Below, one piece after another: positions 6,490 to 44,204 of a stretch of DNA of 64,000 nucleotides. Source of the DNA: Euglena gracilis. Taxonomy: Eukaryota. A program made the position numbers and the translations under genes. How positions within the stretch are numbered: the first letter of the stretch is position 1; each line of letters begins with the position of its first letter. The DNA lies in assembly GCA_039621445.1 (NCBI GenBank), contig CP154954.1:35573703-35637702 (forward strand), read 5' to 3'. Under the pieces are notes generated by a model. The model was not told the DNA's origin, ran no database searches, and worked only from the letters and a program-made list of their open reading frames with translations.

Positions 6490-6938
6490 CCCGGGGAGGG
6501 GGGGGGGGGGGGGGGCAGCGCCCCCGGCTCTCAAGAGGACGGGCCCCAGCCAAGGCGGCCCGGCTCACAACGCGGGGGAGGGGCAGCCCGGACCCCCTCC
6601 ACGGGGGGGTGGGCCGGCCCCCTCCTCCAAGGAACGGGCCCCACCCAAGGCGCCTCCCCGGCGCCCCCTCCAGCACGCACCCCTGCCAAGCCCCTGGGGG
6701 CCTTTGGCCCCGGGATACCGGGCAAGGCGGGGGGCCCCTGCTGGGTTGGTCAAATGTTCCCTTCCGAACATGCAGGAGTTTTCCACCTTTCGGGGGGGGG
6801 GGAGTCCGCCCCTACCCATGGGCCAAGAAGGCTCACGGGACCGGAAAATTTTCAGAGGCGGGAAAGCAAAAGGGAGGGGGGGGGCTGCACCTCGGACCTG
6901 CAAAGGAGTCGAATTTAAATTGCACGGCAATTTTTTTT

Positions 6939-6948
6939 AGGAGGGGAG
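6939..6948 (+). promoter_or_regulatory. Polypurine tract (copy 1)
   Basis: T-run followed by AGGAGGGGAG immediately before the TG of the LTR. Confidence 0.85.
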
Positions 6949-8020
6949 TGTGCGCGGTCCGAGGGTGCCCGCCCCAAGGAGAGGTCCCAAGGGGGCCCAA
7001 AGGGGCCACGAAGGGCCGCAAGGGGGCTCCAAGGCCCCCAAGGGCCTTTTGAGGTCCCACTGGACCCCAAAGGGGCCCCACAGCCCATTTTGAGCAATCC
7101 AAGGGAAGGTAAAGGAGGGGGCAGTTTGAGGGGGCCAACAGGCAACCCCCAAGGGGATGCGCAAGCCCTGCAGGGCTTTGCGCAAGCATGCGCACCCCCT
7201 TGGTGGGCGCTTAGGATGGCACAATTCATTAAGAATTGCGCAAAGTATACCAAGTAGCCCCCCAGCTGTAGCCCCCCTCCAATTTTTGCACAGGGCCCTG
7301 TTTCACTGTTCACATACATTGGGCATTGGTTTTTCAAACCATTTCAAGGAAGTGTTCAATCAATTTTCCCATCAAGCATTTTTGCACCACGCACCCCCCC
7401 ACTTTTTCCCCAAGCGCCCCGTTCAACGTTTTTCTCCCCCCGCCACCATCACCCCACAACCAGCAACCCCATTGGTAGCAGCAATTTTTTTGGGCTCTGT
7501 GTTAAATGTCCCCGATGGTTGCCAAATCTTCCAAGGGGGCATTCCATTCATGAAACCAACGGGCTGGAGGCCTCCTGGGTGGGGGTGCCATGGTAACCTG
7601 GCAAATGTCCCCCCGGCCCTGGCAACCCATTAAACCCCCGACAACCCCATGCAACCACCCCCCCCACCTCAACCGCAGAAACTCGGAGTAAGGCCCAATT
7701 TGGTCCATTTTACAGGGTAACCTGGGCTGACCTCTGTAAATGTGGCACAAATGTTCATTTTTGCAACCAATGTGTTTTTCTTAAACAACAATCAAACAAT
7801 CATGAAACAAGTCCAAGCATTGACCATTTTCAAAATTCAAACTCGAGTGGGCCCAATGTATTTTTAATTCTGCAGCTGCACCGACACTAACACCAACCCC
7901 TAACCTCATTTCTTCACCAACAACCTTCCCGACGGGCTGCATTTTTTACCATTAAACGTTCGAAACCAGGGGTCTGACTTGGGAGGCCTCCTGGAACACC
8001 CATTCGGTAGCAGGCCCATA
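6949..8020 (+). repeat. 3' LTR of copy 1; clean to ~7300, then an LTR/satellite mosaic
   Basis: 6949-7300 matches 36628-36990. Further LTR fragments at ~7785-7975 are interleaved with satellite fragments. Confidence 0.75.
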
Positions 8021-17000: not shown

Positions 17001-20000
17001 TGACTTTGGAGGCCTCCTGGAACACCCATTCGGTTACTCGGAGTAAGGCCCAATTTGGTCCATTTTTACATGGTAACCTGGGCTGACCTGGTAAATGTCC
17101 CCCGGAATGGTCGAATGCACCCATCTAAATCTGCTCATTTCTTGCAACCAACATTCCCGCTGCATGTTTTTCTTACCATTAAACCACGACAATCATGAAA
17201 CCAACGGGTCCCCTGACTTTGGAGGCCTCCTGGAACACCCATTCGGTTACTCGGAGTAAGGCCCAATTTGGTCCATTTTTACATGGTAACCTGGGCTGAC
17301 CTGGTAAATGTCCCCCGGAATGGTCGAATGCACCCATCTAAATCTGCTCATTTCTTGCAACCAACCTTCCGGCTGCATGTTTTTCTTACCATTAAACCAC
17401 GACAATCATGAAACCAACGGGTCCCCTGACTTTGGAGGCCTCCTGGAACACCCATTCGGTTACTCGGAGTAAGGCCCAATTTGGTCCATTTTTACATGGT
17501 AACCTGGGCTGACCTGGTAAATGTCCCCCGGAATGGTCGAATGCACCCATCTAAATGTGCTCATTTCTTGCAACCAACCTTCCGTCTGCATTTTTTCCTT
17601 GCCATTAAACCACGACAATCATGAAACCAACGGGTCCCCTGACTTTGGAGGCCTCCTGGAACACCCATTCGGTAACTCGGAGTAAGGCCCAATTTGGTCC
17701 ATTTTTACATGGTAACCTGGGCTGACCTGGTATATGTCCCTGCATGTTTTTCTTACCATTAAACCACGACAATCATGAAACCAACGGGTCCCCTGACTTT
17801 GGAGGCCTCCTGGAACACCCATTCGGTTACTCGGAGTAAGGCCCAATTTGGTCCATTTTTACATGGTAACCTGGGCTGACCTGGTAAATGTCCCCCGGAA
17901 TGGTCGAATGCACCCATCTAAATGTGCTCATTTCTTGCAACCAACATTCCCGCTGCATGTTTTTCTTACCATTAAACCACGACAATCATGAAACCAACGG
18001 GTCCCCTGACTTTGGAGGCCTCCTGGAACACCCATTCGGTAACTCGGAGTAAGGCCCAATTTGGTCCATTTTTACATGGTAACCTGGGCTGACCTGGTAA
18101 ATGTCCCCCGGAATGGTCGAATGCACCCATCTAAATCTGCTCATTTCTTGCAACCAACATTCCCGCTGCATGTTTTTCTTACCATTAAACCACGACAATC
18201 ATGAAACCAACGGGTCCCCTGACTTTGGAGGCCTCCTGGAACACCCATTCGGTAACTCGGAGTAAGGCCCAATTTGGTCCATTTTTACATGGTAACCTGA
18301 GCTGACCTGGTAAATGTCCCCCGGAATGGTCGAATGCACCCATCTAAATCTGCTCATTTCTTGCAACCAACCTTCCGTATGCATGTTCTTCTTACCATTA
18401 AACCATGACAATCATGAAACCAACGGGTCCCCTGACTTTGGAGGCCTCCTGGAACACCCATTCGGTAACTCGGAGTAAGGCCCAATTTGGTCCATTTTTA
18501 CATGGTAACCTGGGCTGACCTGGTAAATGTCCCCCGGAATGGTCGAATGCACCCATCTAAATCTGATCATTTCTTGCAACCAACATTCCCGCTGCATGTT
18601 TTTCTTACCATTAAACCACGACAATCATGAAACCAACGGGTCCCCTGACTTTGGAGGCCTCCTGGAACACCCATTCGGTTACTCGGAGTAAGGCCCAATT
18701 TGGTCCATTTTTACATGGTAACCTGGGCTGACCTGGTAAATGTCCCCCGGAATGGTCGAATGCACCCATCTAAATGTGCTCATTTCTTGCAACCAACCTT
18801 CCGTCTGCATGTTTTTCTTACCATTAAACCACGACAATCATGAAACCAACGGGTCCCCTGACTTTGGAGGCCTCCTGGAACACCCATTCGGTTACTCGGA
18901 GTAAGGCCCAATTTGGTCCATTTTTACATGGTAACCTGGGCTGACCTGGTAAATGTCCCCCGGAATGGTCGAATGCACCCATCTAAATGTGCTCATTTCT
19001 TGAAACCAACATTCTCGCTGCATGTTTTTCTTACCAATCAACCATGACAATCATGAAACCAACGGGTCCCCTGACTTTGGAGGCCTCCTGGAACACCCAT
19101 TCGGTTACTCGGAGTAAGGCCCAATTTGGTCCATTTTTACATGGTAACCTGGGCTGACCTGGTAAATGTCCCCCGGAATGGTCGAATGCACCCATCTAAA
19201 TCTGCTCATTTCTTGCAACCAACCTTCCGGCTGCAAGTTTTTCTTACCATTAAACCACGACAATCATGAAACCAACGGGTCCCCTGACTTTGGAGGCCTC
19301 CTGGAACACCCATTCGGTTACTCGGAGTAAGGCCCAATTTGGTCCATTTTTACATGGTAACCTGGGCTGACCTGGTAAATGTCCCCCGGAATGGTCGAAT
19401 GCACCCATCTAAATGTGCTCATTTCTTGCAACCAACCTTCCGTCTGCATTTTTTCCTTGCCATTAAACCACGACAATCATGAAACTAACGGGTCCCCTGA
19501 CTTTGGAGGCCTCCTGGAACACCCATTCGGTAACCGGGAGTAAGGCCCAATTTGGTCCATTTTTACATGGTAACATGGGCTGACCTGGTATATGTCCCCC
19601 GGAATGGTCATCTAAATGTGCTCATTTCTTGCAACCAACCTTCCGGCTGCATGTTTTTCTTACCATTAAACCACGACAATCATGAAACCAACGGGTCCCC
19701 TGACTTTGGAGGCCTCCTGGAACACCCATTCGGTTACTCGGAGTAAGGCCCAATTTGGTCCATTTTTACATGGTAACCTGGGCTGACCTGGTAAATGTCC
19801 CCCGGAATGGTCGAATGCACCCATCTAAATGTGCTCATTTCTTGCAACCAACATTCCCGCTGCATGTTTTTCTTACCATTAAACCACGACAATCATGAAA
19901 CCAACGGGTCCCCTGACTTTGGAGGCCTCCTGGAACACCCATTCGGTTACTCGGAGTAAGGCCCAATTTGGTCCATTTTTACATGGTAACCTGGGATGAC

Positions 20001-21862
20001 CTGGTAAATGTCCCCCGGAATGGTCGAATGCACCCATCTAAATCTACTCGGAGTAAGGCCCAATTTGGTCCATTTTTACATGGTAACCTGGGCTGACCTG
20101 GTAAATGTCCCCCGGAATGGTCGAATGCACCCATCTAAATCTGCTCATTTCTTGCAACCAACCTTCCCGCTGCATGCTTTTCTTACCGTTAAACCGCGAC
20201 AATCATGAAACCAACGGGTCCCTTGACTTTGGAGGCCTCCTGGAACACACATTCGGTTACTCGGAGTAAGGCCCAATTTGGTCCATTTTTACATGGTAAC
20301 CTGGGCTGACCTGGTAAATGTCCCCCGGAATGGTCGAATGCACCCATCTAAATGTGCTCATTTCTTGAAACCAACATTCCCGCTGCATGTTTTTCTTACC
20401 GTTAAACCGCGACAATCATGAAACCAACGGGTCCCTTGACTTTGGAGGCCTCCTGGAACACCCATTCGGTTACTCGGAGTAAGGCCCAATTTGGTCCATT
20501 TTTACATGGTAACCTGGGCTGACCTGGTAAATGTCCCCCGGAATGGTCGAATGCACCCATCTAAATCTACTCGGAGTAAGGCCCAATTTGGTCCATTTTT
20601 ACATGGTAACCTGGGATGACCTGGTAAATGTCCCCCGGAATGGTCGAATGCACCCATCTAAATGTGCTCATTTCTTGAAACCAACATTCCCGCTGCATGT
20701 TTTTCTTACCGTTAAACCGCGACAATCATGAAACCAACGGGTCCCTTGACTTTGGAGGCCTCCTGGAACACCCATTCGGTTACTCGGAGTAAGGCCCAAT
20801 TTGGTCCATTTTTACATGGTAACCTGGGCTGACCTGGTAAATGTCCCCCGGAATGGTCGAATGCACCCATCTAAATGTGCTCATTTTTTGCAACCAACCT
20901 TCCCGCTGCATGTTTTTCTTACCATTAAACCACGACAATCATGAAACCAACGGGTCCCCTGACTTTGGAGGCCTCCTGGAACACCCATTCGGTTACTCGG
21001 AGTAAGGCCCAATTTGGTCCATTTTTACGTGGTAACCTGGGCTGACCTGGTAAATGTCCCCCGGAATGGTCGAATGCACCCATCTAAATGTGCTCATTTC
21101 TTGCAACCAACATTCCCGCTGCATGTTTTTCTTACCATTAAACCGCGACAATCATGAAACCAACGGGTCCCTTGACTTTGGAGGCCTCCTGGAACACCCA
21201 TTCGGTTACTCGGAGTAAGGCCCAATTTGGTCCACTTTTACATGGTAACCTGGGATGACCTGGTAAATGTCCCCCGGAATGGTCGAATGCACCCATCTAA
21301 ATCTGCTCATTTCTTGCAACCAACATCCCCGCTGCATTTTTTTCTTACCATTAAACCACGACAATCATGAAACCAACGGGTCCCCTGACTTTGGAGGCCT
21401 CCTGGAACACCCATTCGGTTACTCGGAGTAAGGCCAAGTTTGGTCCATTTTTACATGGTAACCTGGGCTGACCTGGTAAATGTCCCCCGGAATGGTCGAA
21501 TGCACCCGTCTAAATCTGCTCATTTCTTGCAACCAACCTTCCGGCTGCATGTTTTTCTTACCAATCAACCACGACAATCATGAAACCAACGGGTCCCCTG
21601 AATTTGGAGGCCTCCTGGAACACCCATTCGGTTACTCTGAGTAAGGCCCAATTTGGTCCATTTTTACATGGTAACCTGGGCTGACCTGGTAAATGTACCC
21701 CGGAATGGTCGAATGCACCTATCTAAATGTGCTAATTTCTTGCAACCAACCTTCCGGCTGCATGTTTTTCTTACCATTAAACCACGACAATCATGAAACC
21801 AACGGGTCCCCTGACTTTGGAGGCCTCCTGGAACACCCATTCGGTTATTCGGAGTAAGGCCC
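8020..21862 (+). repeat. 213-bp tandem satellite array (~65 units)
   Basis: The unit ATCATGAAACCAACGGGTCCCCTGACTTTGGAGGCC...ACCATTAAACCACGACA recurs every 212-213 bp (e.g. 8168, 8381, 8594 in register), with a few deletion variants. Confidence 0.98.
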
Positions 21863-21868: not shown

Positions 21869-22557
21869 TGTGCGCGGTCCGATGGTGCCCGCCCTAAGGC
21901 GGGGTCCCAAGGGGGCCCAAAGGGGCCACGAAGGGCCGCAAGGTGGCTCCAAGGCCCCCAAGGACCTTTTGAGGTCCCACTGGCCCCCAAAGGGGCCCCA
22001 CAGCCCATTTTGAGCAAGCCAAGGGAAGGTAAAGGAGGGGGCAGTTTGAGGGGGCCAACAGGCAACCCCCAAGGGGATGCGCAAGCCCTGCAGGGCTTTG
22101 CGCAAGCATGCGCACCCCCTTGGTGGGCGCTTGGGATGGTGCAATTCATTAAGAATTGCGCAAAATATACCAAGTAGCCCCCCCAGCTGTAGCCCCCCTC
22201 CAATTACACATTTTCTGCACAGGGCCCTGTTTACACTCTGTTCACATACTGTGTCTCTGTTCATTGTTTGGCATTCAATTGTGTTTTTGCATTTGGCAAT
22301 CAACAAACAATCAAACAAGTTCAAGCAAACAAGTCCAAGTCATTGACCAGATTATTCAATCAAGTTCAATTGAGTGGACCCCAAAAGTATGTATTTTTCC
22401 AATTCTGCAGCTTCACCTACACCAACACCAATCCCTACCCCACTTTTTCACCAAGGGGAAACCCTGTGGGCCCGACGGGCTCAAATTTTAACGATCCTAC
22501 GCGGGTTGCGCCACCAGGGGTCCCTTCACAGGGACCTCAGGAGGGGCAACACCTACA
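21869..22557 (+). repeat. 5' LTR (689 bp)
   Basis: TGTGCGCGGTCC...GGCAACACCTACA. Direct repeat of 36628-37316 with roughly 25 differences by eye. Contains the near-palindrome TGCGCAAGCCCTGCAGGGCTTTGCGCA (~22078). Confidence 0.95.
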
Positions 22558-22575
22558 TGGTCGCAGAGGGGGGTT
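22558..22575 (+). promoter_or_regulatory. Primer-binding site, initiator tRNA-Met-like
   Basis: TGGTCGCAGAGGGGGGTT abuts the LTR-terminal CA. It resembles the complement of the eukaryotic tRNA-iMet 3' end (TGGTAGCAGAG) with one mismatch. Confidence 0.75.
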
Positions 22576-22666: not shown

Positions 22667-25600
22667 ATGGCAGCCCCAGCCATTACGGCCGGGGCCGGCA
22701 GCTCCTGGCCATTGCTGGGCCAGCCCAGCCGGACCCCCAGCAGCAACAATATTGGGTCCGGCTTGGCAATGCCCGGCAGCCTGGGACTGCTCTCTGGCAT
22801 ACCAAGCCTGGTCATGCCGGAGTTTGTGCATGACATTACCAGGCAGGTCATGTGGCAATTCGCCATGCGGGGGAAGATCAAAGAAGAAGAACAAGAACCA
22901 GAAGAAGAAGGTGAAGAAGAATTTTCAAACCAGACCCAGCCGCTTTTACTGGAGGCGGGGCCCTGGCAGAACCCTGGGGATGCCGGGCCGGCACATGCGC
23001 CGGTGAGCCATGTCGGGTCTGGGCATTTCCCGGCCGGACCCGACCATTGCCGCTGGTGCATGCCGGGCCCGGGCATTATGGGCCCCAAGGACATGCCCCA
23101 GACGGAACCACCCAACGGCAGCTGCAGGAGCTGCCCCCAGCAGGGGAAATGGTGGAGGACGAGGACCAGACGGCCCAGGGGGGGTTGGTGCCAGAACAGA
23201 GCCCGAAGGGGAGGCACCCCCCGCACCCCCCCCAGAGGCTGTGGGAGGAGGCGGAGGCACAGGCCGCTGCCTCGGTGGTTCTGGGGCAGGAGATCCAGCG
23301 GATGGACGGTTGGGTTGGCGACCTGCAAAGTCGGCTTGCTGAAGCGGGGGCCACCACAGCTGCTTCAGTTAGCCGCCTGGAGCAGTTGGTGTCCTGCAGT
23401 TTCAGTGGGTCACCTAAAACTTCCAAGGAGTGGTGCAGCAAATGGAAAGAACCCAGGCTGGGCTAGCGTCCCAGCTGGCTGAAAATTTTCAAAATCTGCA
23501 GCAGAAGCAGATGGTAAATTTTTCTGGGTGGATGACAGCCCTGAGCGAGCTGGTGACCACCCGGCTGGGCGAAAGCCTCGGGACTGTGGCCCAACTAGCC
23601 CAGAGGGTCCAGGGGCTCGAGGCCATCGTCAGCCAGGGTCACCAGCCAGCTGAGGGGCAGGGGTTCAACGAGGCGATGGCTGGGCGGGTGAAAAACTTTG
23701 AGGAGCTGCTCATCACTTCCGTCCGGACGACGCAGGAGGTGATGAGGAGCCGGGAGCTGGCCAGCGGGCGGCAGCAGGCCCAGGCCGAGGCCCTGGACCA
23801 AAAATTAAACCAGCTGACGGATGAACTCGGGGGGCTGCGAGAAAGAAATGCAGGAATTGCACAGGCCCTGCAAAATTTTCGAGCAGAGCTGGACGGACAG
23901 GCCACAGCCATCGCCGAACAACAAGGGACCATAAGGGAAGACATAAGGGAGCTAAGGGCCAGGGCTGAGGGGCAGGGCCACAGCCTGCAGGAGCTGTGGG
24001 CCGAGGTCACCACCCACGGGCAGGTGATCCAGGCCCACAACGCCCTGCTCCTGGAGGTGGACTCAACAACAAAGGGGGGGCACCAAAAGAAAATGCCGAA
24101 ATACAAAATCGGATTTTCGTTTTGGAAAAGAAAATCGAAAAATTTGAAATTTTTTGCCCCCCCATCCAGGAGTACCGCAGCCACCCAGAGCAGTGGTGCC
24201 GGAGAGCGAGGACTCCCGAGGACCCGAAGCCAGAGTGCCCCCGGCAACCACAGACTCCCAGACCCAGTCCACGCCGGAGGCCCAGAGTGCCAATGGCTCG
24301 GGTGCCGCGGGGGGCAATATGCCTCCTGGCCCCCAGCACCAGCTCCCGGTCCATCCCAGCGTGCTGGGAGGCAAGGGGCCCGTGGCCCCCCAGGGCCTCT
24401 CTGCTGGCCCCAGCAGCGGGGCAGCGAGGGCAGTGGCCAACACACCCGGGGAAGTGGTATCCCCGGGCCCAGCTTCTGTAACTGCAGTTTTTCCCAGTGG
24501 GTTCTCGGGTTCTGGCCCCCAGAGGGGCAGGAGTGTTGTCCCTGGTTCTTCGGCAGAGGAGAATGCAGCACCCCCAGCCAGCGGGGGCCCTTCGGCACCA
24601 AGGGGCAGCCAGCCCCAGGGTCCCATGGCTGCGGGGGGCAGCCAGCCCAAGGGCCCCATGGCTGCGGGGGGCAGCCAGCCCCAGGGCCCCATGGCTGCGG
24701 GGGGCAGCCAGCCCCAGGGTCCCATGGCTGCGGGGGGCAGTCCGGTCCAGGTCCCCGCTGCTGGAGGGACCCCAGCTGCCCAAACACCTGGAACGTTCGG
24801 GTTCCAGGGGGTGGATTGGGAGGAAGCGGAACGCCAGATTAAGGCTCACGGAGTTTTTAATTTTTTGTCCAGGTTGGGAGCCCAGGAGCAGCAGCAACAG
24901 TCTCAGAAAACTTCACGAACAACGGGACAGTCCAGCACAGCGGAACCACAGACAGCAGGCACAGCGGAACTACAGGGACAGGGCAGGGATCAATCAGGGG
25001 TGAAATCAGCCGAGCACCAGTGGCCCCCCCAGCCCCGTGGGTTCCCCGCAGGAGGGGAGTTCACGGGGGCAATTGACCCTTTCGCCTGGGCCCCTGAGGC
25101 TGGGGCAGCATCGTGCAGCGCTGTCCCTCTGGCATTTGGGTCCCAGGACACGGGAGCCTGGGTCCGGGGGGTCCAGGCAGCTCCGGTCCACGTGGCGCCA
25201 GCAGCCCCCAGCCCAGCAGCCAGCATGTTTTTGGGGCCGCTGTCGACACTCCTCACCAAAGACCTTGTAAAACCAGAGCTGAAAGGGGATTTTCATGATT
25301 TTTCAGTAAAATTTCAGCTTTACATGCAGCAGGTTTCCATGGGACAGCCAGCGGGGGAGGAATTTAAAATGCTTGTTCTGACCGGCTGCCTGGACCACAG
25401 CAGCCGGCTGGAACTCCAGCAGCGACAGGAGATGGGGGAACGGGTCAGGTTCCAGGATTTCTGGAACTGGCTGGCCCAGAAATACGGCGGTGACATCCAG
25501 GCCTCGCTGCATGAGCAGCTCAGGGCCCTCAGGCCGGCAAACACGGGAAAGTTAACCCTCCCAGCGTGGCGTGAATATGAAAGCCAGTTTGAATTAATTT

Positions 25601-26571
25601 TCTGCCGGATGGAAAACCCCTCTGAGGAGGAAGCACAGGCTCTGGTTCTGCAGCAGCTCCAAGATTCCATGCGTAGGGCAATAATCAGGGAGCAGACCTG
25701 AAAAAAATCAGGATGCGCCCACAGTGCGGCTGTGGCACATCCCTGGGTTGACGGCGGAAAAGGCAACACAGCTCGCCCAGGAGGCTGTGGGTGAGGGGGA
25801 GCCGGTGACAGTCAGGGCACACCGGGACTCCTTCCTCATCAAGCTCTACAGCCGGCGGGCGCTGGAGAGGCTGATGATGAGGAACGGGGCCACGCTGCGG
25901 GGGGGCAATACAGTGAAAATCACCCCCCACGAAACAGAGCTGGGATTGGAAGAGGTTTTTCGACATGCTGAAAACGAGCTGCGGTGCCAGAAACGGTCTG
26001 ACAGCTATGGTCGTTCTTGGGGTGGACGGGGGGTCCCAGCCCGCCAGGAGGACCACTGGGCCGGGGGTCTCGACAATTTTTCAGTCTCTGAGGTAAAATC
26101 CCAGGAAGCCAGGCCAGCCCAGCCCCAGAAAACGGTTTCACAGCCAGCTGAGGGAGGAGCAAAGGCAGGACCCCCCAAAGGCCCTGAGGGGCCACAGGGC
26201 AGGCAATCACGGCACCGGGGCGGGTCACCGGGAAAGGTACGGGAGGGACGCAGGTCACCCAGCCCGGGGCAAAAGGGGAAGGGGTTCGGCAAGGGAGCTG
26301 GCAAGGGCGGCTGAGAGTCTCGCCCAGCCAGGTCCCCAACCCCTCACCCAGCCACCAACAGGGAACAAACCGCCCCCCGAGGAGCCCCCGGAGTGGCCCC
26401 TCGGTGGACCAGCCCTGCAGCCAGTGCGGGGCCACAGATCACTGGTCTCGGGAATGCCCTGGAAAAAAATGTTATGAGTGTGGGAAAACGGGACATCTGG
26501 CACGATATTGCTGGTGGAGAAAGGGAAAGGGGAAGGGGGCCTCCACACCCCCACGGCGGGGGAGTGCCTAA
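22667..26571 (+). pseudogene. gag: gag-like ORF (frameshifted): coiled-coil region, low-complexity repeats, capsid-like domain, RRM-like domain, two CCHC zinc knuckles
   Basis: ATG at 22667; heptad-rich 23430-24100; capsid-like FQDFWNWLAQKYG...WREYESQFELIF (~25280-25690); knuckles CSQCGATDHWSREC and CYECGKTGHLARYC at 26416-26511 (read manually, absent from the ORF track); TAA at 26569-26571. Confidence 0.85.
24604..24740 (+). repeat. 33-bp coding minisatellite x4 (GSQPQGPMAAG) within gag
   Basis: ggcagccagccccagggtcccatggctgcgggg repeated four times in frame. Confidence 0.9.
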
Positions 26572-27254
26572 AAAAGCGGGGGCCAGAAGGGAGGGGACGG
26601 GGACTCAGGGTGCCCCGAGCACGGCCCTCGGAAGGGGGGTAAGGAACAGGCTCACGGAGAGGGTTGGGTTTTGGTCAAGGGAAGGTCCAAAGGCCGATCC
26701 GAACCTGAACCTGCACGGTCCCCCCAACCCCCCCTGACTGAGACACGAAAAGGGCTGGGGGGGGCCAGCAGGCCCTCTCATTCGACTCTGCCGTCCCCTG
26801 GTTTGCGCTTTTCACCAGTGAGGGCAGTCCAGGGGGGCTCGGGTCAGAATCCAGGCACGGGACAAAGGGAGAAGGGACACAAGGCGGCTGGCCCTCCGCA
26901 GCAAGCCGCCCAGGGGTCTTCGGGTTCCAGCACACCCAGTCTACCGCAGATCACAACACCAGGAAGGGAGGGAAAAAAACACAAAACAAAAAAACAAAAA
27001 AAGAAAATGAAAAAGAAAAAAACAAAACGCTCTCACAGGCATCAATCAGGGAGGCAGCGAGGGAGGTCATAAACGTTCCCCAAACCATCAAGGGCACGGA
27101 TGAAACCGCCCCCAGCACGGAAAGGGATTCAGGGTTTTCGATTCGCCAGGTGAGGTGCGTCAGGACCGCACCTTCCACCTCAACGCCCACACCACGGCAA
27201 GCCCCAGCACCACTCCCAGCCCGTTCCTCAGGGTTTGGGAGGTCGCCCTCCCGG

Positions 27255-27670
27255 TGGATCTCCCAGGACTACCACGTCCGGGAGGAGTACGTCAGGGACG
27301 TTCTCCGCCGCCTGGGGGTCCAGCCGGAGGTCGACGCTTTTTCTGCCAAAGAAAACCGCAGGTTTGTCCGCTGGTGGGGGCCAGGGAGTAGGGAGGGAGA
27401 AGATGCCTTCGCGCAGTACTGGGGCAGGGAAGTTTTGTGGATTAATCAACCTTATAAAAATATCCAGGAGGTTCCCGAAAAAATCAAGAGGGATCAGGCC
27501 CATGCCATCCTGGTGATCCCCAGGTGGCCGGGGCGGTGTTGGTACAGGGAGGCGAGGGGCTTGGCAGTGCGCCAAGTCACGTTCCCTCAGGGGACACGAT
27601 TTTTCGGCAGAGGTGAGGAGTTGTGCCGAGGGACCGAGTGGCCCATCACAGCCTTTTTGCTGTGTGGGCA
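27255..27670 (+). pseudogene. Dam-like (phage/DIRS-type) DNA N6-adenine methyltransferase domain in pol
   Basis: VDAFSAKENRRF...EDAFAQYWG..LWINQPY..I..V..KI......ILVIPRWPGRCWY. This matches the DxFA..N / DAF...W / NPP(Y/F) / xxLVxPxW....W pattern of DIRS-type adenine MTases. The catalytic motif reads NQPY (27444-27455). Confidence 0.8.
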
Positions 27671-27827
27671 CCCAGACCGGTGCACGCTGGAGGAGGTGAC
27701 ACGAAGGGGGAGAGAGAAAAAAACCAGGTTCGGGACACATTTTTCAGGGCCACCCCCAGGGACCGGGGGGGCCACGGGGGAGGTCAAGCCGGCGCACCTG
27801 GGACAGGCGGGGAGAGCGGACCAGCCC

Positions 27828-28430
27828 AGGCGGATGCTGGACCTGTTCTGCGGGACAGGTTCAGTGGGGGACGTCTATCGCAGCCTGGGTTACCAGGTCA
27901 CGTCGGTGGACGTGGACCCCAGGTGGCGGCCAGACATTTGTGTTGATGTGCTGAAATGGAATTTTAAAAAACAGCCTGGAAATTTTGAGGTGGTGGTGTG
28001 CGGGGTCCCCTGCACCGAATTCAGCCTGGCCCTGACCACCAGGGAACGGGATTTTAAATTGGCTGATCGGCTGGTGCAGCGGGCCCTGGCCATCATCAGA
28101 TACCTCCGCCGACGGCGGTGGTGGCTGGAAAACCCCCGGTACGGGTACCTGCGGACCCGCAGGTACATGGCAGGGATCCTGCACGTGGACGTGGATTACT
28201 GCCAGTACGCTGACTGGGGCTACCAGAAGCCCACCAGGATATGGGGCAGCCCCCATGTCCTGGGTCTCCGGCCACGGGTGTGTGACGGCCGGACCTGCAC
28301 CAACCTGGAAAGCCCACTACCTAAGGGGTGACGAAAGGGACGGCACAAAATTCGGCTCAGCAGCAAACACCAAAACCTGCCCAGGCACCTGAAATATCGG
28401 ATCCCAGAGGCGCTCATCCGTGACCTGGCC
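27828..28430 (+). pseudogene. C5-cytosine DNA methyltransferase domain in pol (one in-frame TGA at 28329)
   Basis: Motif I MLDLFCGTGS, motif II SVDVD, catalytic motif IV GVPCTEFS (PC at 28008-28013), motif VI WLENP, motif VIII-like YCQYADWGYQKPTRIW, and C-terminal KYRIPEALI after the stop. Confidence 0.9.
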
Positions 28431-28549
28431 ACAGCACCGGCACCGGAGGCCCACGCTGCCGGGTCTCCGGAGCCAGAGCGGGACCCCCAGACAGAGCGAG
28501 GGGTGCCCTCGGTCTTGCTCCGTGAGGTGGGGCAGGGTGCCAGTGAACG

Positions 28550-28950
28550 GCAGCTGCTGATGCGGGTGCAGGCCAGGGGGCCAGACGGACAGACTCACTT
28601 CATCAACGCCCTCATTGACACAGGGGCAGAGGTGAACCTGGTCCGAAGAGGCATGCTACCCAGCACATACCTCCTGCCTGCCCCCAAGCCCCTGTCCCTG
28701 GTGACGGCTAGTGGAGCCAAGATGGAAGGGGGGGAACGTGAGGCAACCCTGGGCCTGGTCCTCCGGCGGGAGGGGGGCCTGGGTCAGGGGGAAGGGGCCT
28801 TGTGGACGGCCCCAGCCTCCTTCTATGAGGCAGACATCCACGTGGAGGCCATCATCGGCTTTCCGTGGCTGGAGGAAAACCAGCTCGGGGTGTTTCCACA
28901 TCTCCGAGCCCTGGAATTGAGGGGAGAGCAGGTGGTCCTCCTTCGGGGAC
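28550..28950 (+). pseudogene. pol: Retropepsin-type aspartic protease domain
   Basis: ALIDTGAEVNLV (DTG at 28617) and AIIGFPWL. Same frame as the MTases and RT. Confidence 0.92.
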
Positions 28951-29141
28951 ATGATGCGGAGGGTGATCAAGTTCAGCCAGCAGCCCACAAAAAGGCACAA
29001 AAGCGAGTGAGATACCTGAAAATGGTGGAAAAAGTCAGAGCACTGCGGCTTGCTTTGCCAGAGGCAGCCCTGTGGGAGGACACCGAGGAGCCTGAGTGAG
29101 AGGAAAACCCCCTGCACGAGGATGAGGCGACCCAGGAGACA

Positions 29142-30791
29142 GTGGCCAAGGAACTCCTGCGGGCAGCCCAGGAGGTCGAAGGGGAACAGGTGACCAGCCA
29201 GCGGCCTGAGGAGCTCCGGGCAGCCCTCCGGAGGGACTTCGAGGGGGAGGTTCTCCGAGACAGGTTTTGGGGGGAAGGAATCGTTCGGGGGCCCCTGGGG
29301 GAAGGGAAAATCGAATTAAAACCGGGATCTGTGGCAAAGAAACAGAGGCCCATCCACCTGACGGGGGAGAGGCACAGGGCCTTGTGTGACCTGGTGGATG
29401 AGTGGGTGCGGGACAAGAAGGTGGAGGAGGGGGTGCCAAGTGCCTGGAGCAGCCCCACATTCGTGGTGGCCAAGAAACAGGGGAGGTGGCGTGGGGTTGT
29501 GGATTTCCGGGCATTAAACGAGGCCACAGAGACGGATTCTTACCCCCTCCCCAGGATTGAAGACATCCTGGTGAACCAAGGACGGAGGTACCTGTTCTCC
29601 GTCCTTCATCTCAAGGATGCCTTCCATCAGGTGCCCCTGCACGAAGACTCACGCCCATACACCTGCTGCAGCACCCCCCGAGGGTCCAAGCAGTGGTCTG
29701 TGGTCGTGATGGGCCTGAAAAATGGAGTGGCCATTTTTCAGCGGGTGATCGACTACTCGCTGAGGGATGTGGCTGATGTCGCCAACCCATATGTTGACGA
29801 CATCATCGTGGGGACCGAGTGGTGTGGCACAGAGGAAGCTACCCTGGAGGCACACGACCAGGACATAAGGCGAGTGTTGGGGGCACTGCGGGAACACCGC
29901 CTGGTCGTGGACAAAAACAAGTGCCGCTTCTTCGTAAGAGAAGTGGAGTTCTGTGGCCACATCCTGGGGGGAGGAAAACGGAGGCCAGCCCCGGGCAAAC
30001 TCATGGCGCTGGAGAAGTGGGAGGAGCCCAGCACGATCACAGCCCTCAGGGGCTTTCTGGGCTTCACCAACTACTACTCCAGCTACGTGAAGGAGTATGC
30101 CCGGTATGCAGCCCCCCTGATGGAACTCCTCAAGGTGGGACGTGTGGAAGGGAAAAAAGGCAGCAAAAAACCTGTGAAATTCGACCAAGTGGAACGGGAG
30201 GCCTTCACCACCCTGAAGCAGGAGATCCTCCGGGGATTGGAGCTCCACACCATCAACCCGGACCAGCCATTCATTCTCCGGGTTGATGCGAGCGACAAGG
30301 CGGTGGGGGCAGCCCTGGAACAGTTTTTGTAGCCAACAGAGGGGATGCCCACAGCCGTGGAAGCCACTACACGGAACATTGTGCCTGTGGCCTTCTGCTC
30401 CAGGAAACCCACGGCTGGACAGGTGAAAAGCTGCTCTCCGCGAGAGAAGGAGACCTACGCCATCATCCTGGACCTCCAGAAATGGGCCTCCTACATCGGC
30501 CTGCAGCCGGTGTTGGTCCTCACGGACCACAAGTCCCTGGAGGCCTGGGCCAAGGTAACCCTGGACACGCCCAGCGGACCTGCGGGAAGGCGGGGACGCT
30601 GGCATGAAATGTTCTCCCGGTTTGACCTTCACGTGGTCTACATCCCGGGAAAGGAAAACGTGGTGGCAGATGCCCTGAGCAGGTGGGCATATCCTGCCTC
30701 CAAGGCATTTGCCGACATCAGCCTCCACGGGAGCGAGGAGGATGATGAGGCAATGAGGGCCATGATCGAAGAAGAACTGAGGGAAGAGTGA
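29142..30791 (+). pseudogene. pol: Reverse transcriptase + RNase H (copy 2), in-frame TAG at 30330
   Basis: WSSPTFVVAKKQGRWRGVVDFRALN, YVDD (29790), VDASD, TDHKSL, GKENVVADALSR. Copy 1 has GAG where this copy has TAG. Confidence 0.96.
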
Positions 30792-31249
30792 GAATGCGGG
30801 ACACCGCACGGGGGGGAGGAACTCCACGTGGCAGTAACAACACGCAGTTGGAGAGACACAGCAGCACAGCACAGACCTGGCCCCAGCCCCACAGAGGGGG
30901 AGGGGGCTGAGGATTCAGTGCCAGGGGGCCCTGGCCCTGACCCCACAGGGGGGGAGGGGCCTGTGGACGCCCCCTCGGGAGATTCGGGTCCCATCCTCAT
31001 GGGAGGGGAGGGGCCTGGGGTACCTGGGTTGGACACGCGGGAGACACGAGGTTCCCCACGTGCCCATCTTTTCGTGGATGAATTCGGGAATGGACAGCCG
31101 GCAAGAAGGGGGGGGACCTGAGGATCACCAACCGGGGCGAAGAGTTCTGAGTGAGGACCTGCAGCTGACCCCCCCATCGATGATCCTCACCGGGAGGATC
31201 TCGGGGAACCTGTGGGGGAACCAATTTCACTTTCTCCAGACACGGGGGT

Positions 31250-32837
31250 GCACACCCAAGGAGGAGGTGGAGGAGGATCCCTCCATCCCAGTGATGGACA
31301 GGGATTGGTCACGAGCATGTGAAAATTGCCCTGTGTGGGGGTCTGTTTATGCAATTGTGCAGGCCCCTGCAGGAGAGTGGCCTGAGGGGGTCCGTCTGTA
31401 CGGGGACAAAATGTACACGGACGGGCTCCTCCGTGTGCCCACCAGCCTGATGGGGCTCGTGGTCCGGGCCCACCATGGGGACGCGGGCCACCCAGGTGCC
31501 TCAAGGCTATGGCACCGGATGGGGCGGTGGTACAGGTTCGCAGATCCAAGGGGGGCTGAGAAAATCACCCAAGGCATCCAGCGGCAATGTGAAATCTGCC
31601 AAGCCTGTGACCCCTCTCGAGCACCTTTCAAGTGTGCTCTCGAAGCCACCCCTGTGCCACCCTTCCTCATGGACAGCGTGGCGGTGGACCTGTTCGCCAG
31701 GCCTGAGGTGACCCACGAGGGCCAGGTGTATGATTATCTGGCCCTGTGCGTGGACCGTGAGAGTAGGTGGACGGTGGCCACCCCACACAAGTACAAGGGC
31801 CTGGCAGCTGAGGTGGTAGCCAAGGCCATGTTCCGCCACTGGGACATGATCGGGGTGCCCTCTGTGGTGACCTCGGACCGTGGCCCCCACTTTGCCTCGG
31901 CTTGGTGGCAAACAATGTGCGCCGCCATGGGGGTGAGGCGCGCCTACGGGCAGGCCTATCACCACCAGGCCAACGGTCGGGCAGAGGTGGCAGGCCAACG
32001 GGTGATGAACACCCTGTCCAAGCTCATCGCTGACCTGTCGGAGAAGGAGGCCTCATGGGTGGAGCTGTTACCCAAGGCCCTCCGGCACCTGCACGATGTG
32101 CCAGGGGAGTCCGGCTTGTCGCCCTACGAGGTGGTCTTCGGGCGGCACCGGCCACTCCAAGGCCTGCCCCACCAGCCCCCACGAGAGGCCGAGGGGGCAG
32201 CCAACTTCATGGCACGGATGCGGGCTATGGACGAGAAGGTGGCCTCCACCCTGAACGCCCTGCACGCCAACAGGTGGGCTTCCATCAACGCCAGGAGTAG
32301 GGACCCCCCTCCCCTGGAGGTCGGTGCCAAGGTGTGGTACCGTCCCGAGACACAGCCGCCTGGAAGGTGGGAACGGATGAGTGGGTGTGACGAGATTGTT
32401 GGGCAGCCGGAACCAACGGAAAACGGGAGTCCCGGAATTTCAGTAGGTGGAAATAAGTGGGATCACGACGGAACTCCTAATGGCTGCCATGGTCAGATTT
32501 CTGTCCCTTAGTAAACACCCCCCCCCAAATAACACACCCCGGTGTGTTATTTGGGCACCCAGAACGGGGCCCCAGGGGGGTGGGTGTTAGGGGGGGGGGT
32601 TGTATTGTACATGGAAAACCAAAGGGAAAACAGGGGGGGGTGTTATTGGGGCGCTTGAAAGCGGACCCCGAGGGGGGGTGTGTTATTTGGGGGGGGTGTG
32701 TTATTTGGGGGGTGTGTTATTTGGGGGGGGTTTACAAAGAGGATGTGGTTGATTATTGTGCAGCCAAGGGGATTCCGTTGGAGGTGGTGGGACTTCTCCG
32801 CCCCGGGAAGAGGGGGGGGCGGGGACGGGGTCAATAA
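31250..32837 (+). pseudogene. pol: Integrase (HHCC, DD35E) plus degraded, insertion-interrupted chromodomain (copy 2)
   Basis: HHGDAGH...CEIC, VDLF...SDRG...NGRAE. 32375-32513 aligns with indels to the copy-1 chromodomain and resumes at 32733 (YKEDVVDYC). Confidence 0.92.
32514..32732. mobile_element. MITE-like insertion (~219 bp) with terminal inverted repeats and TA target duplication
   Basis: Absent from copy 1 (…GTACAAAGAGG at ~3104). Left end AAC(A)C-run-AAATAACACACCC is the reverse complement of right end GGGTGTGTTATTTG-run-TT. TA flanks both sides. Confidence 0.8.
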
Positions 32838-32931: not shown

Positions 32932-33456
32932 ATGCAGCGCTACGTGCCCCGTCGCCCCTACGTCCCTGGACCTCTTCCCGTCGTCCCTCCGCCGCCATCG
33001 GCCGCCGAGGCGGAGGCCGCCCTCCTCACCCTCTTGCCCGCCCCCAAGCGCCCCCGCCTGGACACCCCCGTGGAACCTCCCCAGCCAGCCGACTCCCCCC
33101 GACCACCGTCCCCCACACGCCCGGAGGACCTCCGCTCCCTGCTGGCCTACCTCGAGAGGCTGGCGGCGGAGGTGGAGCACCTCCGGAGCGTGGTGGGGCG
33201 GTTGGTGGGCGAGGGAGCACCGCAGCGGGTGGATGCGGGGGTGCAGGCGGAGGCGCCTGGCGAAGGGGACGACCAGGGGAGCGAGGAGGAGGCAAGCGAG
33301 TCGTGGTCGTTGGACCTCCTCGCCGCGGCTGCCACGGCCGGGGACCCCGAGGCCGAGGACGCCGAAGGGGACCAGGTCGGGGAGCCCGGCGGGGTGCTCC
33401 AACTGCTCCTAGCGGAGTCCGAGCCCTTGTGGCCCGGCTGCGATGAGGACCCCTAA
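32932..33456 (+). CDS. Extra ORF downstream of pol (ORF3), copy 2
   Basis: Same length and open frame as 3304-3828, with about six amino-acid differences. Confidence 0.55.
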   Translation: MQRYVPRRPYVPGPLPVVPPPPSAAEAEAALLTLLPAPKRPRLDTPVEPPQPADSPRPPSPTRPEDLRSLLAYLERLAAEVEHLRSVVGRLVGEGAPQRVDAGVQAEAPGEGDDQGSEEEASESWSLDLLAAAATAGDPEAEDAEGDQVGEPGGVLQLLLAESEPLWPGCDEDP

Positions 33457-34426
33457 GCCCCCCCCGTCGACGCAGACGTAGCCTGGGCCGGCTTACCTGT
33501 AGAGGCTAGCCCACCGGGGGGGGGGGAAATGGGGTTGGTGCGGAAAACCTTGGAGGGACCGAGCTTATTTCCTTTGTTTGTTGTTGTTGTTGTGTTTCGC
33601 AGGTTCAATCTCAATTTAAATTTCAGCGAAGTCAACCCCACAGTGCCCCTTGGCTACGGGCGAGGGGGCCAGGAGGGGCGACGGGACGCCCGGGTGGGGC
33701 GAGGAGGTCACAGGAGCACACCGGGGGGGGTCCCAATGGTTGAGGGGGCCCACAGCCCCCCCAAGGCTGGCCTCGCCCACCACCCGCGGCCCACATAGCG
33801 CCCCGAGGGGCAAGCGCCCCGCGAGATGAGGCGCCCCACGCACCGCACGTGCACCACACCGCACGGTGCGGCGCCCGAGGGGCCCACAGGGGGTCCACAG
33901 GCGACTGCGGGCCCGAGGGCCCACAGGGCCACGGAGGCCCAACGGGTGCCTCGAGCCCCCGGGTGTGCATTATTGTTTTTCCTTTTTTTTGAGCCCTTCA
34001 AGTGTTCGGTCGATCTCCATTTCATTTTCGTGTTGCGTTGTCATTAGGCGGTGGGGGTGCCCCGTGGCCAAGTTGGCTCCGGGGGGGGCACCTGCCCATT
34101 TTGTTCAATTTTTGATGGTTGGCCACACCCCTCTTCGGCCCACCGTGCCGAGGGAGGGGGGGGCGCCTGCAAATTCTTCCCGATTTTGACGGTTGACTAC
34201 CCCCCACATCGGCCCACCGCGCCGAAGGAGGGGGGGGGGGCGCCTGCCAGTTTTTGACCGACCTTTTTTGCGGTTGTCCACACCCCTCCTCGGCCCACCA
34301 TGCCGGGGGAGGGGGGGGGGCGCCTGTCGCTTTTCCACCAATTTAAGAAAAATACACCCCGTCGGCCAATTTTTGAAGCTAACCACGCCGGGGGGGGGGG
34401 GCAAGCGCCAACCCCCCTCCACAGCG

Positions 34427-36117
34427 TGTGAGTGGCCTTGCTGCACAGCAACTTTTGGCATGCCAGCCTGTTGCATTACAACATTTGGCATTACAGATTG
34501 GTGAATTAAGGATTTCCAGCAGAGAAGTTCCTAATTCATTTTTCTGGTAGGGCAAATCCCATGACTTGTTTGCGTGGCGCTGTGGACTGGACTTGAAGGA
34601 GTGTTCTGCTGTATTTGTGCATTTGGCTTATGCTGCGCGCCAAGGGGAAGAAGAATTGGGAAATTCCCCCTGGGATTGGGTGTCCCAAGTGCCTGGCAAA
34701 TTCAAAGGGGAGATTATGCAAAGTCTGCTGGGTGTGCAAGTTCTGTGTTCTGAAGGTTGAAGAATGCCAGTGTTGCGGAAGCTGCCATCTGCATGCCAGC
34801 AATTGCCATTGTGGGCATGGTGCCCGGATCTTTCACAAACAAGTCAGTCCAGCCTGTACAAACAAGTTCTCTGCCCAAGATGCTCAGAAAGTGCATGATC
34901 TGGGCAGTCATGCTGAAGATTGCAATGCCAGATTTGGTCATGGGAAGGTTTCGGACAGAAGTGTTGAAGACAATTTTGGACATGGAGATTCCAAATTCAG
35001 ACATGCAATCGAGATGTGCGACAAGGGGGTGCAGACAGAAGGAAAAGCCAGAACAAGGGGAAGAAGAGAGAGGAGGAAGAAAGTGAAGGGGAAGTAATGG
35101 CAAGCTGGACAGGTCAGATTCGAGGTATTTGGCTGATGTTTGTGGCATGCCGCGTGCTGTGTCTGTGGCCAATTCTGGGGCAGTAAACCCAATAAATTAC
35201 ACATGTCTGTGGGAGATGGCCGCTGATGGCATGTGGCCATGCCGCGGTGGGTGTTTGCTGGGTGGAAATCTCATTAAATGGCTCGACGGTGGGTTGTGGT
35301 GAGCCGCGGTTGACCAAATTAACTAGAATTTAAATGCCCCAGTTTGCCCATTTCACCCCCTGCTTGGGACCCCACCCACCTCTGGGCCATTTTGGGTGGA
35401 AGGGTAGGTTTCCAGCCATGATGGTCCAAGGGGCATCTTTGGGATGTCTTCCCCTGAAAAAGAAGAGGTCATCATGGGAGGAGGTTCCAAGGGGGTGTGG
35501 GTGCCCTTCCTCTGCAGCCTGCCTGTGTGTTTGCTGTAGGAGTGTCCACCTGGGGGAGATTTGCCCCAAGACAGGTGCAACACTTCGAACCGTATTTAAA
35601 ATTCCTATTTTTCATTTTACGGGTTTGACTGCAACCAAGGCCACTTTTTAATTTTTTGACTCGCTTTGTTGGGAGTTGGACCCAGCAAAGCTCGCCCGGA
35701 GAGGGGAGTGTGAGTGGCCTTGCTGCACAGCAACTTTTGGCATGCCAGCCTGTGGCATTACAACATTTGGCATTACAGATTGGTGAATTAAGGATTTCCA
35801 GCAGAGAAGTTCATAATTCATGGTTCTGGTAGGGCAAATCCCATGACTTGTTTGTGTGGCGCTGTGGACTGGACTTGAAGGAGTGTTCTGCTGTATTTGC
35901 GCATTTGGCTTATGCTGCGCGCCAAGGGGAAGAAGAATTGGGAAATTCCCCCTGGGATTGGGTGTCCCAAGTGCCTGGCAAATTCAAAGGGGAGATTATG
36001 CAAAGTCTGCTGGGTGTGCAAGTTCTGTGTTCTGAAGGTTGAAGAATGCCAGTGTTGCGGAAGCTGCCATCTGCATGCCAGCAATTGCCATTGTGGGCAT
36101 GCTGCCCGGATCTTTCA
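34427..36117 (+). mobile_element. Nested TRIM-like unit (409-bp direct repeats 34427-34835 and 35709-36117), copy 2
   Basis: Same structure as 4799-6489, including the purine tract before the second repeat. Confidence 0.6.
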
Positions 36118-36617
36118 ACCGGAGAGAGCGGGGGGGGGGGGGCAGCGCCCCCGGCTCTCAAGAGGACGGGCCCCAGCCAAGGCGGCCCGGCTCACAACGC
36201 GGGGGAGGGGCAGCCCCGACCCCCTCCACGGGGGGGGGGCAGCCCCCTCCTCCAAGGAACGGGCCCCACCCAAGGCGCCTCCCCGGCGCCCCCTCCAGCA
36301 CGCACCCCTGCCAAGCCCCCGGGGGCCTTTGGCCCCGGGATACCGGGCAAGGCGGGGGGCCCCTGCTGGGTTGGTCAAATGTTCCCTTCCGAACATGCAG
36401 GAGTTTTCCACCCCTGGCCAAGCGGGGCCTGGGGGGGGAATCACAATTACACATTGGCATCGAGTGTTTCGGGGGGGGGGCAGTCCGCCCCTACCCATGG
36501 GCCAAGAAGGCTCACGGGACCGGAAAATTTTCAGAGGCGGGAAAGCAAAAGGGAGGGGGGGGGCTGCACCTCGGACCTGCAAAGGAGTCGAATTTAAATT
36601 GCACGGCAATTTTTTTT

Positions 36618-36627
36618 AGGAGGGGAG
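36618..36627 (+). promoter_or_regulatory. Polypurine tract (copy 2)
   Basis: AGGAGGGGAG directly 5' of the LTR TG. Confidence 0.88.
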
Positions 36628-37316
36628 TGTGCGCGGTCCGAGGGTGCCCGCCCCAAGGAGAGGTCCCAAGGGGGCCCAAAGGGGCCCCGAAGGGCCGCAA
36701 GGGGGCTCCAAGGCCCCCAAGGGCCTTTTGAGGTCCCACTGGTCCCCAAAGGGGCCCCACAGCCCATTTTGAGCAAGCCAAGGGAAGGTAAAGGAGGGGG
36801 CAGTTTGAGGGGGCCAACAGGCAACCCCCAAGGGGATGCGCAAGCCCTGCAGGGCTTTGCGCAAGCATGCGCACCCCCTTGGTGGGCGCTTAGGATGGCA
36901 CAATTCATTAAGAATTGCGCAAAGTATACCAAGTAGCCCCCCAGCTGTAGCCCCCCTCCAATTGCACATTTTCTGCACAGGGCCCTGTTTACACTCTGTT
37001 CACATACTGTGCCTCTGTTCATTGTTTGGCATTCAATTGTGTTTTTGCATTTGGCAGTCAACAAACAATCAAACAAGTTCAAGCAAACAAGTCCAAGGCA
37101 TTGACCAGATTATTCAATCAAGTTCAATTGAGTGGACCCCAAAAGTATGTATTTTTCCAATTCTGCAGCTTCACCTACACTAACACCAACCCCTAACCCA
37201 CTTTTTCACCAAGCGGAAAGCCCTGTGGGCCCGACGGGCTCAAATTTTAACGATCCAACGCGGGTTGCGCCACCAGGGGTCTCTTCACAGGGACCTCAGG
37301 AGGGGCAACCCCAACA
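36628..37316 (+). repeat. 3' LTR (689 bp)
   Basis: TGTGCGCGGTCC...GGCAACCCCAACA; direct repeat of 21869-22557. Confidence 0.95.
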
Positions 37317-44156: not shown

Positions 44157-44204
44157 GCCGGCGTGGCCCGGCGAGGGGGGGGCCGGGGAGGATGGCCATC
44201 GGCC

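What the first reader, a model, noticed from the sequence alone, without database searches (positions are those of the whole stretch)
27150..32837. Gypsy retrotransposon whose Pol carries tandem adenine- and cytosine-DNA methyltransferases plus a chromodomain
Seen: a Dam-like domain (DAF..N / DAF..W / NQPY / LVIPRW) is directly followed by a C5-MTase (FCGTG, PC, ENP, KPTRIW, YRIP). ORF pieces 27150, 28503, 29142, 30345 and 30828 all share one frame and are separated only by single stop codons, so the ancestral polyprotein was probably N6-MTase-C5-MTase-PR-RT-RH(-IN-CHD). Established: Dam-like domains are typical of DIRS tyrosine-recombinase elements, and C5-MTases have been reported in dinoflagellate and charophyte retrotransposons. 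Inference: a DDE-integrase Gypsy with both MTase classes upstream of the protease, in a probable euglenid, is an architecture I do not recognise. It could methylate its own cDNA or target site and, with the chromodomain, read and write heterochromatin marks.
Basis: partly seen in the sequence, partly recalled or inferred. Interest (0 to 1): 0.93.

Follow-up and report, generated by a model that had tools for sequence, protein, structure and literature searches.

The report
Known double-methyltransferase retrotransposon, decayed copy
This is a broken copy of a jumping gene that carries two methylating enzymes and a chromatin-reading module, a real and unusual design that a 2026 preprint already described in Euglena as 'EpiLTRs'.

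Summary
A 15.4-kb Ty3/Gypsy LTR element (21869-37316) carries a Dam-like domain and a C5 DNA methyltransferase ahead of PR-RT-RH-IN. The C5 part folds like DNMT3B and M.HhaI (Z 14.2, 13.3). The Dam-like part hits PF05869 weakly and folds most like PCIF1/CAPAM (Z 10.9). This copy is dead: four in-frame stops, NQPY where 39 of 44 relatives have NPP[FYW], and a frameshifted chromodomain (readable only in a second copy at 1-7317). Five of five long relatives scanned carry Dam, C5, RT, RH, IN and chromodomain in one ORF, so it is not a one-off insertion. The class is already in print: bioRxiv 10.64898/2026.05.21.726589 names DAM+DNMT+chromodomain LTR elements 'EpiLTRs' in Euglena gracilis and Cymbomonas. 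The host was not shown; weak signs point to a euglenid. Points I did not find in the preprint's main text: several domain orders among relatives, a PCIF1-like fold (RNA substrate possible), compact viral relatives of the C5 module, and both copies lying in a 213-bp satellite array.

The parts
21869..22557 (+). 5' LTR (TG...CA)
   Evidence: 96.4% identical to the 3' LTR over 699 aligned columns (that alignment runs 11 nt past CA)
22558..22575 (+). primer-binding-site-like stretch starting TGG, directly after the LTR
   Evidence: sequence; likeness to the 3' end of initiator tRNA is recalled, not tested
23418..26571 (+). frameshifted gag region with two CCHC zinc knuckles near its end
   Evidence: zf-CCHC E 2.4e-9, 2 stretches; family contigs lack 1 base at 25701
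27255..27701 (+). Dam-like (PF05869 / PCIF1-like) N6-adenine MTase domain; motif IV reads NQPY
   Evidence: Pfam Dam E 0.0025; model pLDDT 92.3; best fold match CAPAM Z 10.9, rmsd 2.9 over 136, then E. coli Dam Z 8.0 and T4 Dam Z 7.9
27822..28439 (+). compact C5 DNA methyltransferase (motifs I, IV PC, VI ENP, KPTR, terminal YRIP), broken by a stop at 28329
   Evidence: fold matches DNMT3B Z 14.2, M.HhaI Z 13.3; Foldseek E 1e-7; profile hits DNMT1 E 1.3e-5
28551..28919 (+). aspartic protease (LIDTGA at 28611)
   Evidence: RVP E 0.02; tblastn of the proteases of P0110 and P0113
29100..30791 (+). reverse transcriptase and RNase H, with stops at 30330 and 30789
   Evidence: RVT_1 E 2.7e-28, RT_RNaseH E 2.7e-11; best PDB sequence hits 4ol8 E 1.6e-43 and Ty3-G Gag-Pol 7q5b E 1.8e-42
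31435..32350 (+). DDE integrase (H2C2 zinc finger and core), in a shifted frame
32370..32837 (+). frameshifted chromodomain remnant; its C-terminal tail (32733-32837) is displaced by about 230 bp
   Evidence: three-frame translation; alignment to copy A; family joint skipping 32502-32733
32935..33456 (+). extra 173-aa ORF after pol, of no known family
   Evidence: no Pfam hit; no Atlas hit above 0.78
34426..36118 (.). nested 1.7-kb insertion with 411-bp terminal direct repeats, shared with copy A
   Evidence: repeats 98-99% alike; family contigs skip it (joint 34422 to 36118/36119)
36618..36627 (+). polypurine tract
   Evidence: sequence directly before the 3' LTR
36628..37316 (+). 3' LTR, followed by 12 PBS-like bases and then satellite; no clean target-site duplication
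1..7317 (+). copy A: 5'-truncated second copy (RT to partial LTR) with a readable chromodomain at about 2960-3130; also broken by stops and indels
   Evidence: 96.7% and 98.9% identity in two blocks; PF00385 E 2.9e-5
7905..21862 (.). 213-bp satellite array (resumes at 37335-42883) in which the element sits

Best explanation
A dead copy of a high-copy Ty3/Gypsy chromodomain LTR retrotransposon of the 'EpiLTR' kind, most likely in a euglenid. Shown: the anatomy (LTR-PBS-gag-Dam-C5-PR-RT-RH-IN-chromodomain-PPT-LTR), both MTase folds, and intact single-ORF relatives that keep the catalytic motifs. Inferred from Ty3/Gypsy biology: an intact element makes one Pol polyprotein, and the protease frees the MTase modules inside the particle. 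My most likely mechanism: the C5 enzyme methylates cytosines of the new cDNA, so that it arrives marked like a heavily CpG-methylated host genome; the chromodomain steers the integrase to heterochromatin such as this satellite array; and the Dam-like domain puts N6-methyladenine on the element's RNA or RNA:DNA intermediate rather than on naked duplex DNA. About 0.9 for the class assignment, about 0.4 for the mechanism.
For: Domains and folds. Intact relatives: 5 of 5 scanned (P0110, P0111, P0113, P0114, P0116, picked because the database listed both MTases) have Dam, DNA_methylase, RT, RH, rve and Chromo in one ORF. Motifs among the 150 best representatives at 50% identity: NPP[FYW] in 39 of 44 that span the site, PC in at least 105 of 115, ENP in 93 of 114. 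Family size: 45,468 and 50,703 contigs of two coded DNA runs lay on the element, covering 30 of 30 bins, and contigs of X4 and X16 bridge the Dam and C5 parts. CpG observed/expected is 0.37-0.66 in the LTR, gag and pol segments. Both window copies adjoin the 213-bp array. Class described in 10.64898/2026.05.21.726589, which also reports near-default CG methylation and more 6mA-marked DAM-LTR insertions in E. gracilis.
Against: No activity was measured. This copy cannot work (stops, frameshifts, NQPY). The preprint saw no 6mA from eukaryotic DAMs in E. coli and no raised LTR expression in E. gracilis. Iyer et al. judged DIRS1 MTase domains likely inactive (PMC4738411, passages). Many relatives lack the Dam-like domain within the same ORF (7 C5-PR-RT proteins among 125), so it may be dispensable. 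CpG depletion is no stronger in the element than outside it (0.57). Two copies in one array may be one duplication, since they share a nested insertion, so targeting is not shown. The host is not shown.
Confidence: 0.8

Rival explanations
1. The Dam-like domain is a PCIF1-type RNA enzyme or RNA-binding module (cap-adjacent adenosine of the element's transcript), and only the C5 domain acts on DNA. The element is then not a dual DNA methylator.
For: Best fold match is CAPAM/PCIF1 by VIA (Z 10.9, next 8.4) and by Foldseek (E 1.4e-4, the only match under 1e-3). Iyer et al. place DIRS1 MTases in the PCIF1 clade. No 6mA on E. coli DNA in the preprint's assay.
Against: Sequence identity to CAPAM is only 10-17%, and a shared fold shows no substrate. 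The preprint reports more 6mA-marked DNA on DAM-LTR insertions and a prokaryotic origin for the clade.
Confidence: 0.3
2. An independent assembly of the same toolkit in a host outside the two lineages described, which would make it a third EpiLTR origin.
For: The host could not be named (no genome; organisms coded). The order differs from Cymbomonas, where the DNMT is at the 3' end of pol. Relatives show several domain orders.
Against: The text describes a structurally distinct Euglena version with all three domains. A neighbouring TilS-like gene has an inferred non-GT-AG intron whose ends pair at -47.4 kcal/mol against a 1% null of -33.4, as in euglenids. The DNA runs hold 1.2-2.3 Gb of contigs.
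Confidence: 0.12
3. The MTase segment is a passive or one-off capture, or an assembly chimera, without function for the element.
For: The window's own domains are below Pfam cut-offs and broken. The preprint itself raises nested insertions or assembly artefacts for some Euglena elements. The window has noisy junctions (7318-7905).
Against: The same in-frame fusion recurs in divergent relatives with kept catalytic motifs, and independent contigs bridge the two domains.
Confidence: 0.03

Closest known systems
Euglena gracilis EpiLTR / DAM-LTR (bioRxiv 10.64898/2026.05.21.726589; whole main text read, figures and supplements not seen)
   Same: Ty3/Gypsy LTR element with DAM, DNMT and chromodomain; NPP catalytic triplet in the family.
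   Different: The text does not give the Euglena domain order, so identity of order with DAM-C5-PR-RT-RH-IN-CHD is not checked. This copy is decayed.
Cymbomonas tetramitiformis EpiLTR (same preprint)
   Same: Same three epigenetic modules in a chromovirus-like element.
   Different: There the DNMT is appended to the 3' end of pol; here it is upstream of the protease.
KnitGypsy-Dnmt3, SymbioDIRS-Dnmt3, SymbioLINE-Dnmt (PMC5890265; passages read)
   Same: Retrotransposon-borne C5 DNMT.
   Different: No Dam-like domain or chromodomain in the passages seen ('chromodomain' 0 occurrences); different DNMT lineage according to the 2026 preprint.
DIRS Dam-like MTases / PCIF1 clade (PMC4738411; passages read)
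   Same: PF05869-type domain with a PCIF1-like fold.
   Different: Here the element has a DDE integrase and direct LTRs; no tyrosine recombinase was found by the Pfam scans of its ORFs.
Compact stand-alone C5 MTases of viral contigs, including giant-virus bins (L003-L034)
   Same: Same roughly 200-aa layout, up to 38% identity.
   Different: Stand-alone ORFs of 200-264 aa with no RT, IN or Dam-like match in the fetched flanks.

Membership tests
Ty3/Gypsy LTR retrotransposon | pol order PR-RT-RH-IN with DDE integrase | tested here: met
Ty3/Gypsy LTR retrotransposon | direct LTRs TG...CA with PBS and PPT | tested here: met
Ty3/Gypsy LTR retrotransposon | RT closest to Ty3 among solved RTs | tested here: met
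   E 1e-43 to 1e-42 against 1e-18 for HIV-2 RT
Ty3/Gypsy LTR retrotransposon | target-site duplication | tested here: inconclusive
   no clean duplication at the satellite junctions
EpiLTR | DAM (PF05869) domain in an LTR element | tested here: met
   weak in the window (E 0.0025), above cut-off in relatives, MTase fold
EpiLTR | C5 DNMT domain | tested here: met
EpiLTR | chromodomain | tested here: met
   readable in copy A and in relatives; frameshifted remnant in this copy
Euglena EpiLTR lineage | host is Euglena or another euglenid | tested here: inconclusive
   no genome held; organisms coded; one inferred intron pairs strongly but does not fit the published N3CDG / CH'GN5-6|R signature as I placed it
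Euglena EpiLTR lineage | DNMT in the EpiLTR clade sister to DNMT4; DAM and RT in the Euglena clades | not tested
   no named Euglena, Cymbomonas or DNMT4 sequence was among my rows
EpiLTR | 6mA or 5mC activity, or methylated insertions | not testable with these tools
   needs an assay or modified-base calls
DIRS retrotransposon | tyrosine recombinase instead of integrase; split or inverted repeats | tested here: not met
   DDE integrase and plain direct LTRs

The most novel reading that the evidence does not exclude
EpiLTRs are not two isolated curiosities but one broad chromovirus-like lineage that took a compact C5 methyltransferase from DNA viruses and has reshuffled it with a PCIF1-like module in many orders (DAM-C5-PR, PR-DAM-C5, C5-DAM-PR, DAM-PR-C5, C5 only). 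Its 'Dam' marks the element's RNA rather than DNA, and the element homes to a satellite array.
Probability: 0.15. Interest if true: 0.65.

Novelty: already known. Interest (0 to 1): 0.25.

Why it matters
The class matters because a mobile element that carries writers for both main methyl marks and a histone-mark reader could set its own chromatin state on arrival. That point was already made by the May 2026 preprint. What this window adds is a worked example with exact anatomy, and a testable lead for the preprint's unexplained negative assay: the adenine enzyme looks structurally like the RNA cap methyltransferase PCIF1, so capped RNA or RNA:DNA hybrid should be tried as substrate.

Tried and rejected
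Single-sequence searches of the MTase region were weak: Pfam E 0.01-0.07, PDB E 0.17 or worse, Atlas top score 0.82, a lead only. The metagenome contig scan gave 2 loci from 22 pattern matches, both distant stand-alone C5 genes, so no relative's DNA with LTRs was obtained. No intact relative with the window's own order running through to the chromodomain was found; P0103 and P0104 show no RT motif after the protease. Host naming failed: cluster look-ups of 5 relatives gave no accession, and two paper searches for Euglena genome repeats gave nothing useful. Three inferred TilS introns were examined: one pairs beyond the 1% null (-47.4), one is at it (-33.9) and one does not (-21.0); boundaries are guessed from protein motifs, and only 2 of 5 exon pieces hit TIGR02432, weakly (E 0.004, 0.27). 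A likeness between the LTR end and the satellite unit was tested and not supported (best E 0.88). Runs X15 and X16 are only guessed to be RNA, so transcription is not shown. Lower summed depth over 33262-35866 is not used as evidence. The 173-aa ORF gave nothing. Trees are unrooted or midpoint-drawn; the retro-versus-viral split has SH-aLRT 93 and is not starred, so no donor is claimed.
Full report
Observation. One frame from 26742 carries the Dam-like motifs, the C5 motifs, the protease, RT and RNase H, with single stops at 28329, 29097, 30330 and 30789. The integrase is in the next frame.

The element. Self-comparison gives LTRs at 21869-22557 and 36628-37316, 96.4% alike, with TG...CA ends, a TGG-starting primer site after the first and a purine tract before the second. 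The gag region has two CCHC knuckles. The RT is closest to Ty3-type RTs among solved structures. The element lies in a 213-bp satellite array with no clean target-site duplication, and the 3' LTR is followed by 12 PBS-like bases, so the junction may be rearranged. A second, 5'-truncated copy at 1-7317 is 96.7% and 98.9% alike in two blocks; it is open at two of the three stops that fall in the overlap, has breaks of its own, and keeps a readable chromodomain. Both copies share a nested 1.7-kb insertion, so they may stem from one duplication.

The two methyltransferases. Alone they score below Pfam cut-offs. Read through with X at the stop and folded with 36 relatives (pLDDT 82.9), residues 195-406 match DNMT3B (Z 14.2, rmsd 5.9, 204 aligned), DNMT3A (14.1) and M.HhaI (13.3, rmsd 4.5, 194 aligned); the first 20 rows are C5-type enzymes. 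The Dam-like part folded alone (pLDDT 92.3) matches the cap-specific adenosine methyltransferase CAPAM/PCIF1 best (Z 10.9, rmsd 2.9, 136 aligned), ahead of E. coli Dam (8.0) and T4 Dam (7.9); Foldseek agrees. Iyer et al. (PMC4738411, passages) placed DIRS1 MTases in the PCIF1 clade and thought them likely inactive. Here the relatives keep the motif: NPP[FYW] in 39 of 44 representatives spanning the site, while the window has NQPY; PC is kept in at least 105 of 115 and ENP in 93 of 114 (150 proteins examined, 48 with a Dam-like match, 122 with a C5 match, 20 with both).

Is it a family? Yes. The homolog searches gave 101 and 24 relatives, and the representative library 165 proteins at E up to 1e-30. 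Five long relatives, chosen because both MTases were listed, each hold Dam, DNA_methylase, RT, RNase H, integrase and chromodomain in one ORF. By motif scan of 125 relatives the orders include DAM-C5-PR (3, as in the window), PR-DAM-C5 (9), C5-DAM-PR (4), C5-PR-RT without Dam (7) and C5-PR-DAM (1); 58 showed only the C5 motif and 16 none, many being fragments. P0157 adds DAM-PR-C5. In the RT tree of 19 rows the PR-DAM-C5 and C5-DAM-PR types fall in separate well-supported groups, and the window lies between them. Two coded DNA runs laid 45,468 and 50,703 contigs on the element, covering all 30 bins, and contigs bridge the Dam and C5 parts; this shows many variant copies, not a copy number. The C5 module has compact stand-alone relatives in 32 viral loci; element-borne copies form one side of a branch with SH-aLRT 93 (88 rows, no root), which suggests but does not show a viral source.

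What is known. bioRxiv 10.64898/2026.05.21.726589 (whole main text read; figures and supplements not seen) reports DAM domains in LTR retrotransposons and names elements with DAM, DNMT and chromodomain 'EpiLTRs', in Cymbomonas (DNMT at the 3' end of pol) and in Euglena gracilis (a 'structurally distinct' layout, given only in a figure). It was the only paper holding 'EpiLTR' or 'DAM-LTR'. The supplements may already show the domain orders, the satellite context or viral DNMT relatives noted here. DNMT-bearing retrotransposons were described in PMC5890265 (passages), and PMC5741210 noted high-coverage Cymbomonas scaffolds with chromodomain, RNase H and cytosine MTase homology (passages). PMC12501133 (passages) gave the Euglena intron signature.

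Host. Not shown. For a euglenid: the match to the Euglena class; DNA runs of 1.2-2.3 Gb; CpG depletion; and one inferred non-GT-AG intron with strongly pairing ends in a TilS-like gene. Against certainty: that intron does not fit the published signature as I placed it, and only one of three inferred introns pairs clearly beyond the 1% null. I put a euglenid host at roughly 0.85, as a judgement.

Mechanism. Shown: anatomy, folds, conserved catalytic motifs in relatives. From general knowledge of Ty3/Gypsy (recalled): polyprotein processing by the protease and chromodomain-guided integration; the chromodomain in copy A keeps aromatic residues at the positions I recall as the methyl-lysine cage (alignment). 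Inferred: the C5 enzyme pre-methylates cDNA, and the Dam-like domain acts on RNA or hybrid. The preprint's negative E. coli assay and the absence of raised expression in Euglena count against a simple DNA-activating role.

Verdict. Real, well supported, decayed, and of a class already described. Interest 0.25; the PCIF1-like substrate question and the domain shuffling are worth passing to specialists.

Noticed in passing
window 7905-21862 and 37335-42883: 213-bp satellite array, 92 copies listed by the repeat finder, many 97-100% alike; possibly pericentromeric, not tested.
   Followed up: partly
window 4798-6490 and 34426-36118: Non-coding-looking 1.7-kb insertion with 411-bp terminal direct repeats (98-99% alike), like a miniature LTR element; family contigs that skip it exist.
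   Followed up: partly
window 43200-47580 (- strand): Fragments of a TilS-like gene in at least four pieces; two hit TIGR02432 weakly. One inferred intron lacks GT-AG and has complementary ends. An apparent frameshift in the first piece may be decay or assembly error.
   Followed up: partly
window 32935-33456: 173-aa ORF after pol, proline-rich then acidic, present in both copies; no family found.
   Followed up: partly
window 7318-7905: Junction after copy A's truncated LTR looks like a mosaic: 7787-7904 is 78-79% like the LTR's later part and 7681-7743 is satellite-like; possibly an assembly consensus artefact.
   Followed up: no
window 55293-64000: About 8.7 kb of a TGTCTC hexamer repeat (1457 copies), preceded by a GTATAT tract.
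   Followed up: no
P0109, P0157, P0010: Further domain orders in relatives: C5-PR then Dam far downstream (P0109), Dam-PR-C5 (P0157), PR-C5 followed by a Dam-like stretch (P0010).
   Followed up: partly
L004, L006, L010: Giant-virus bins encode stand-alone C5 MTases of about 205-215 aa related to the element's module.
   Followed up: partly
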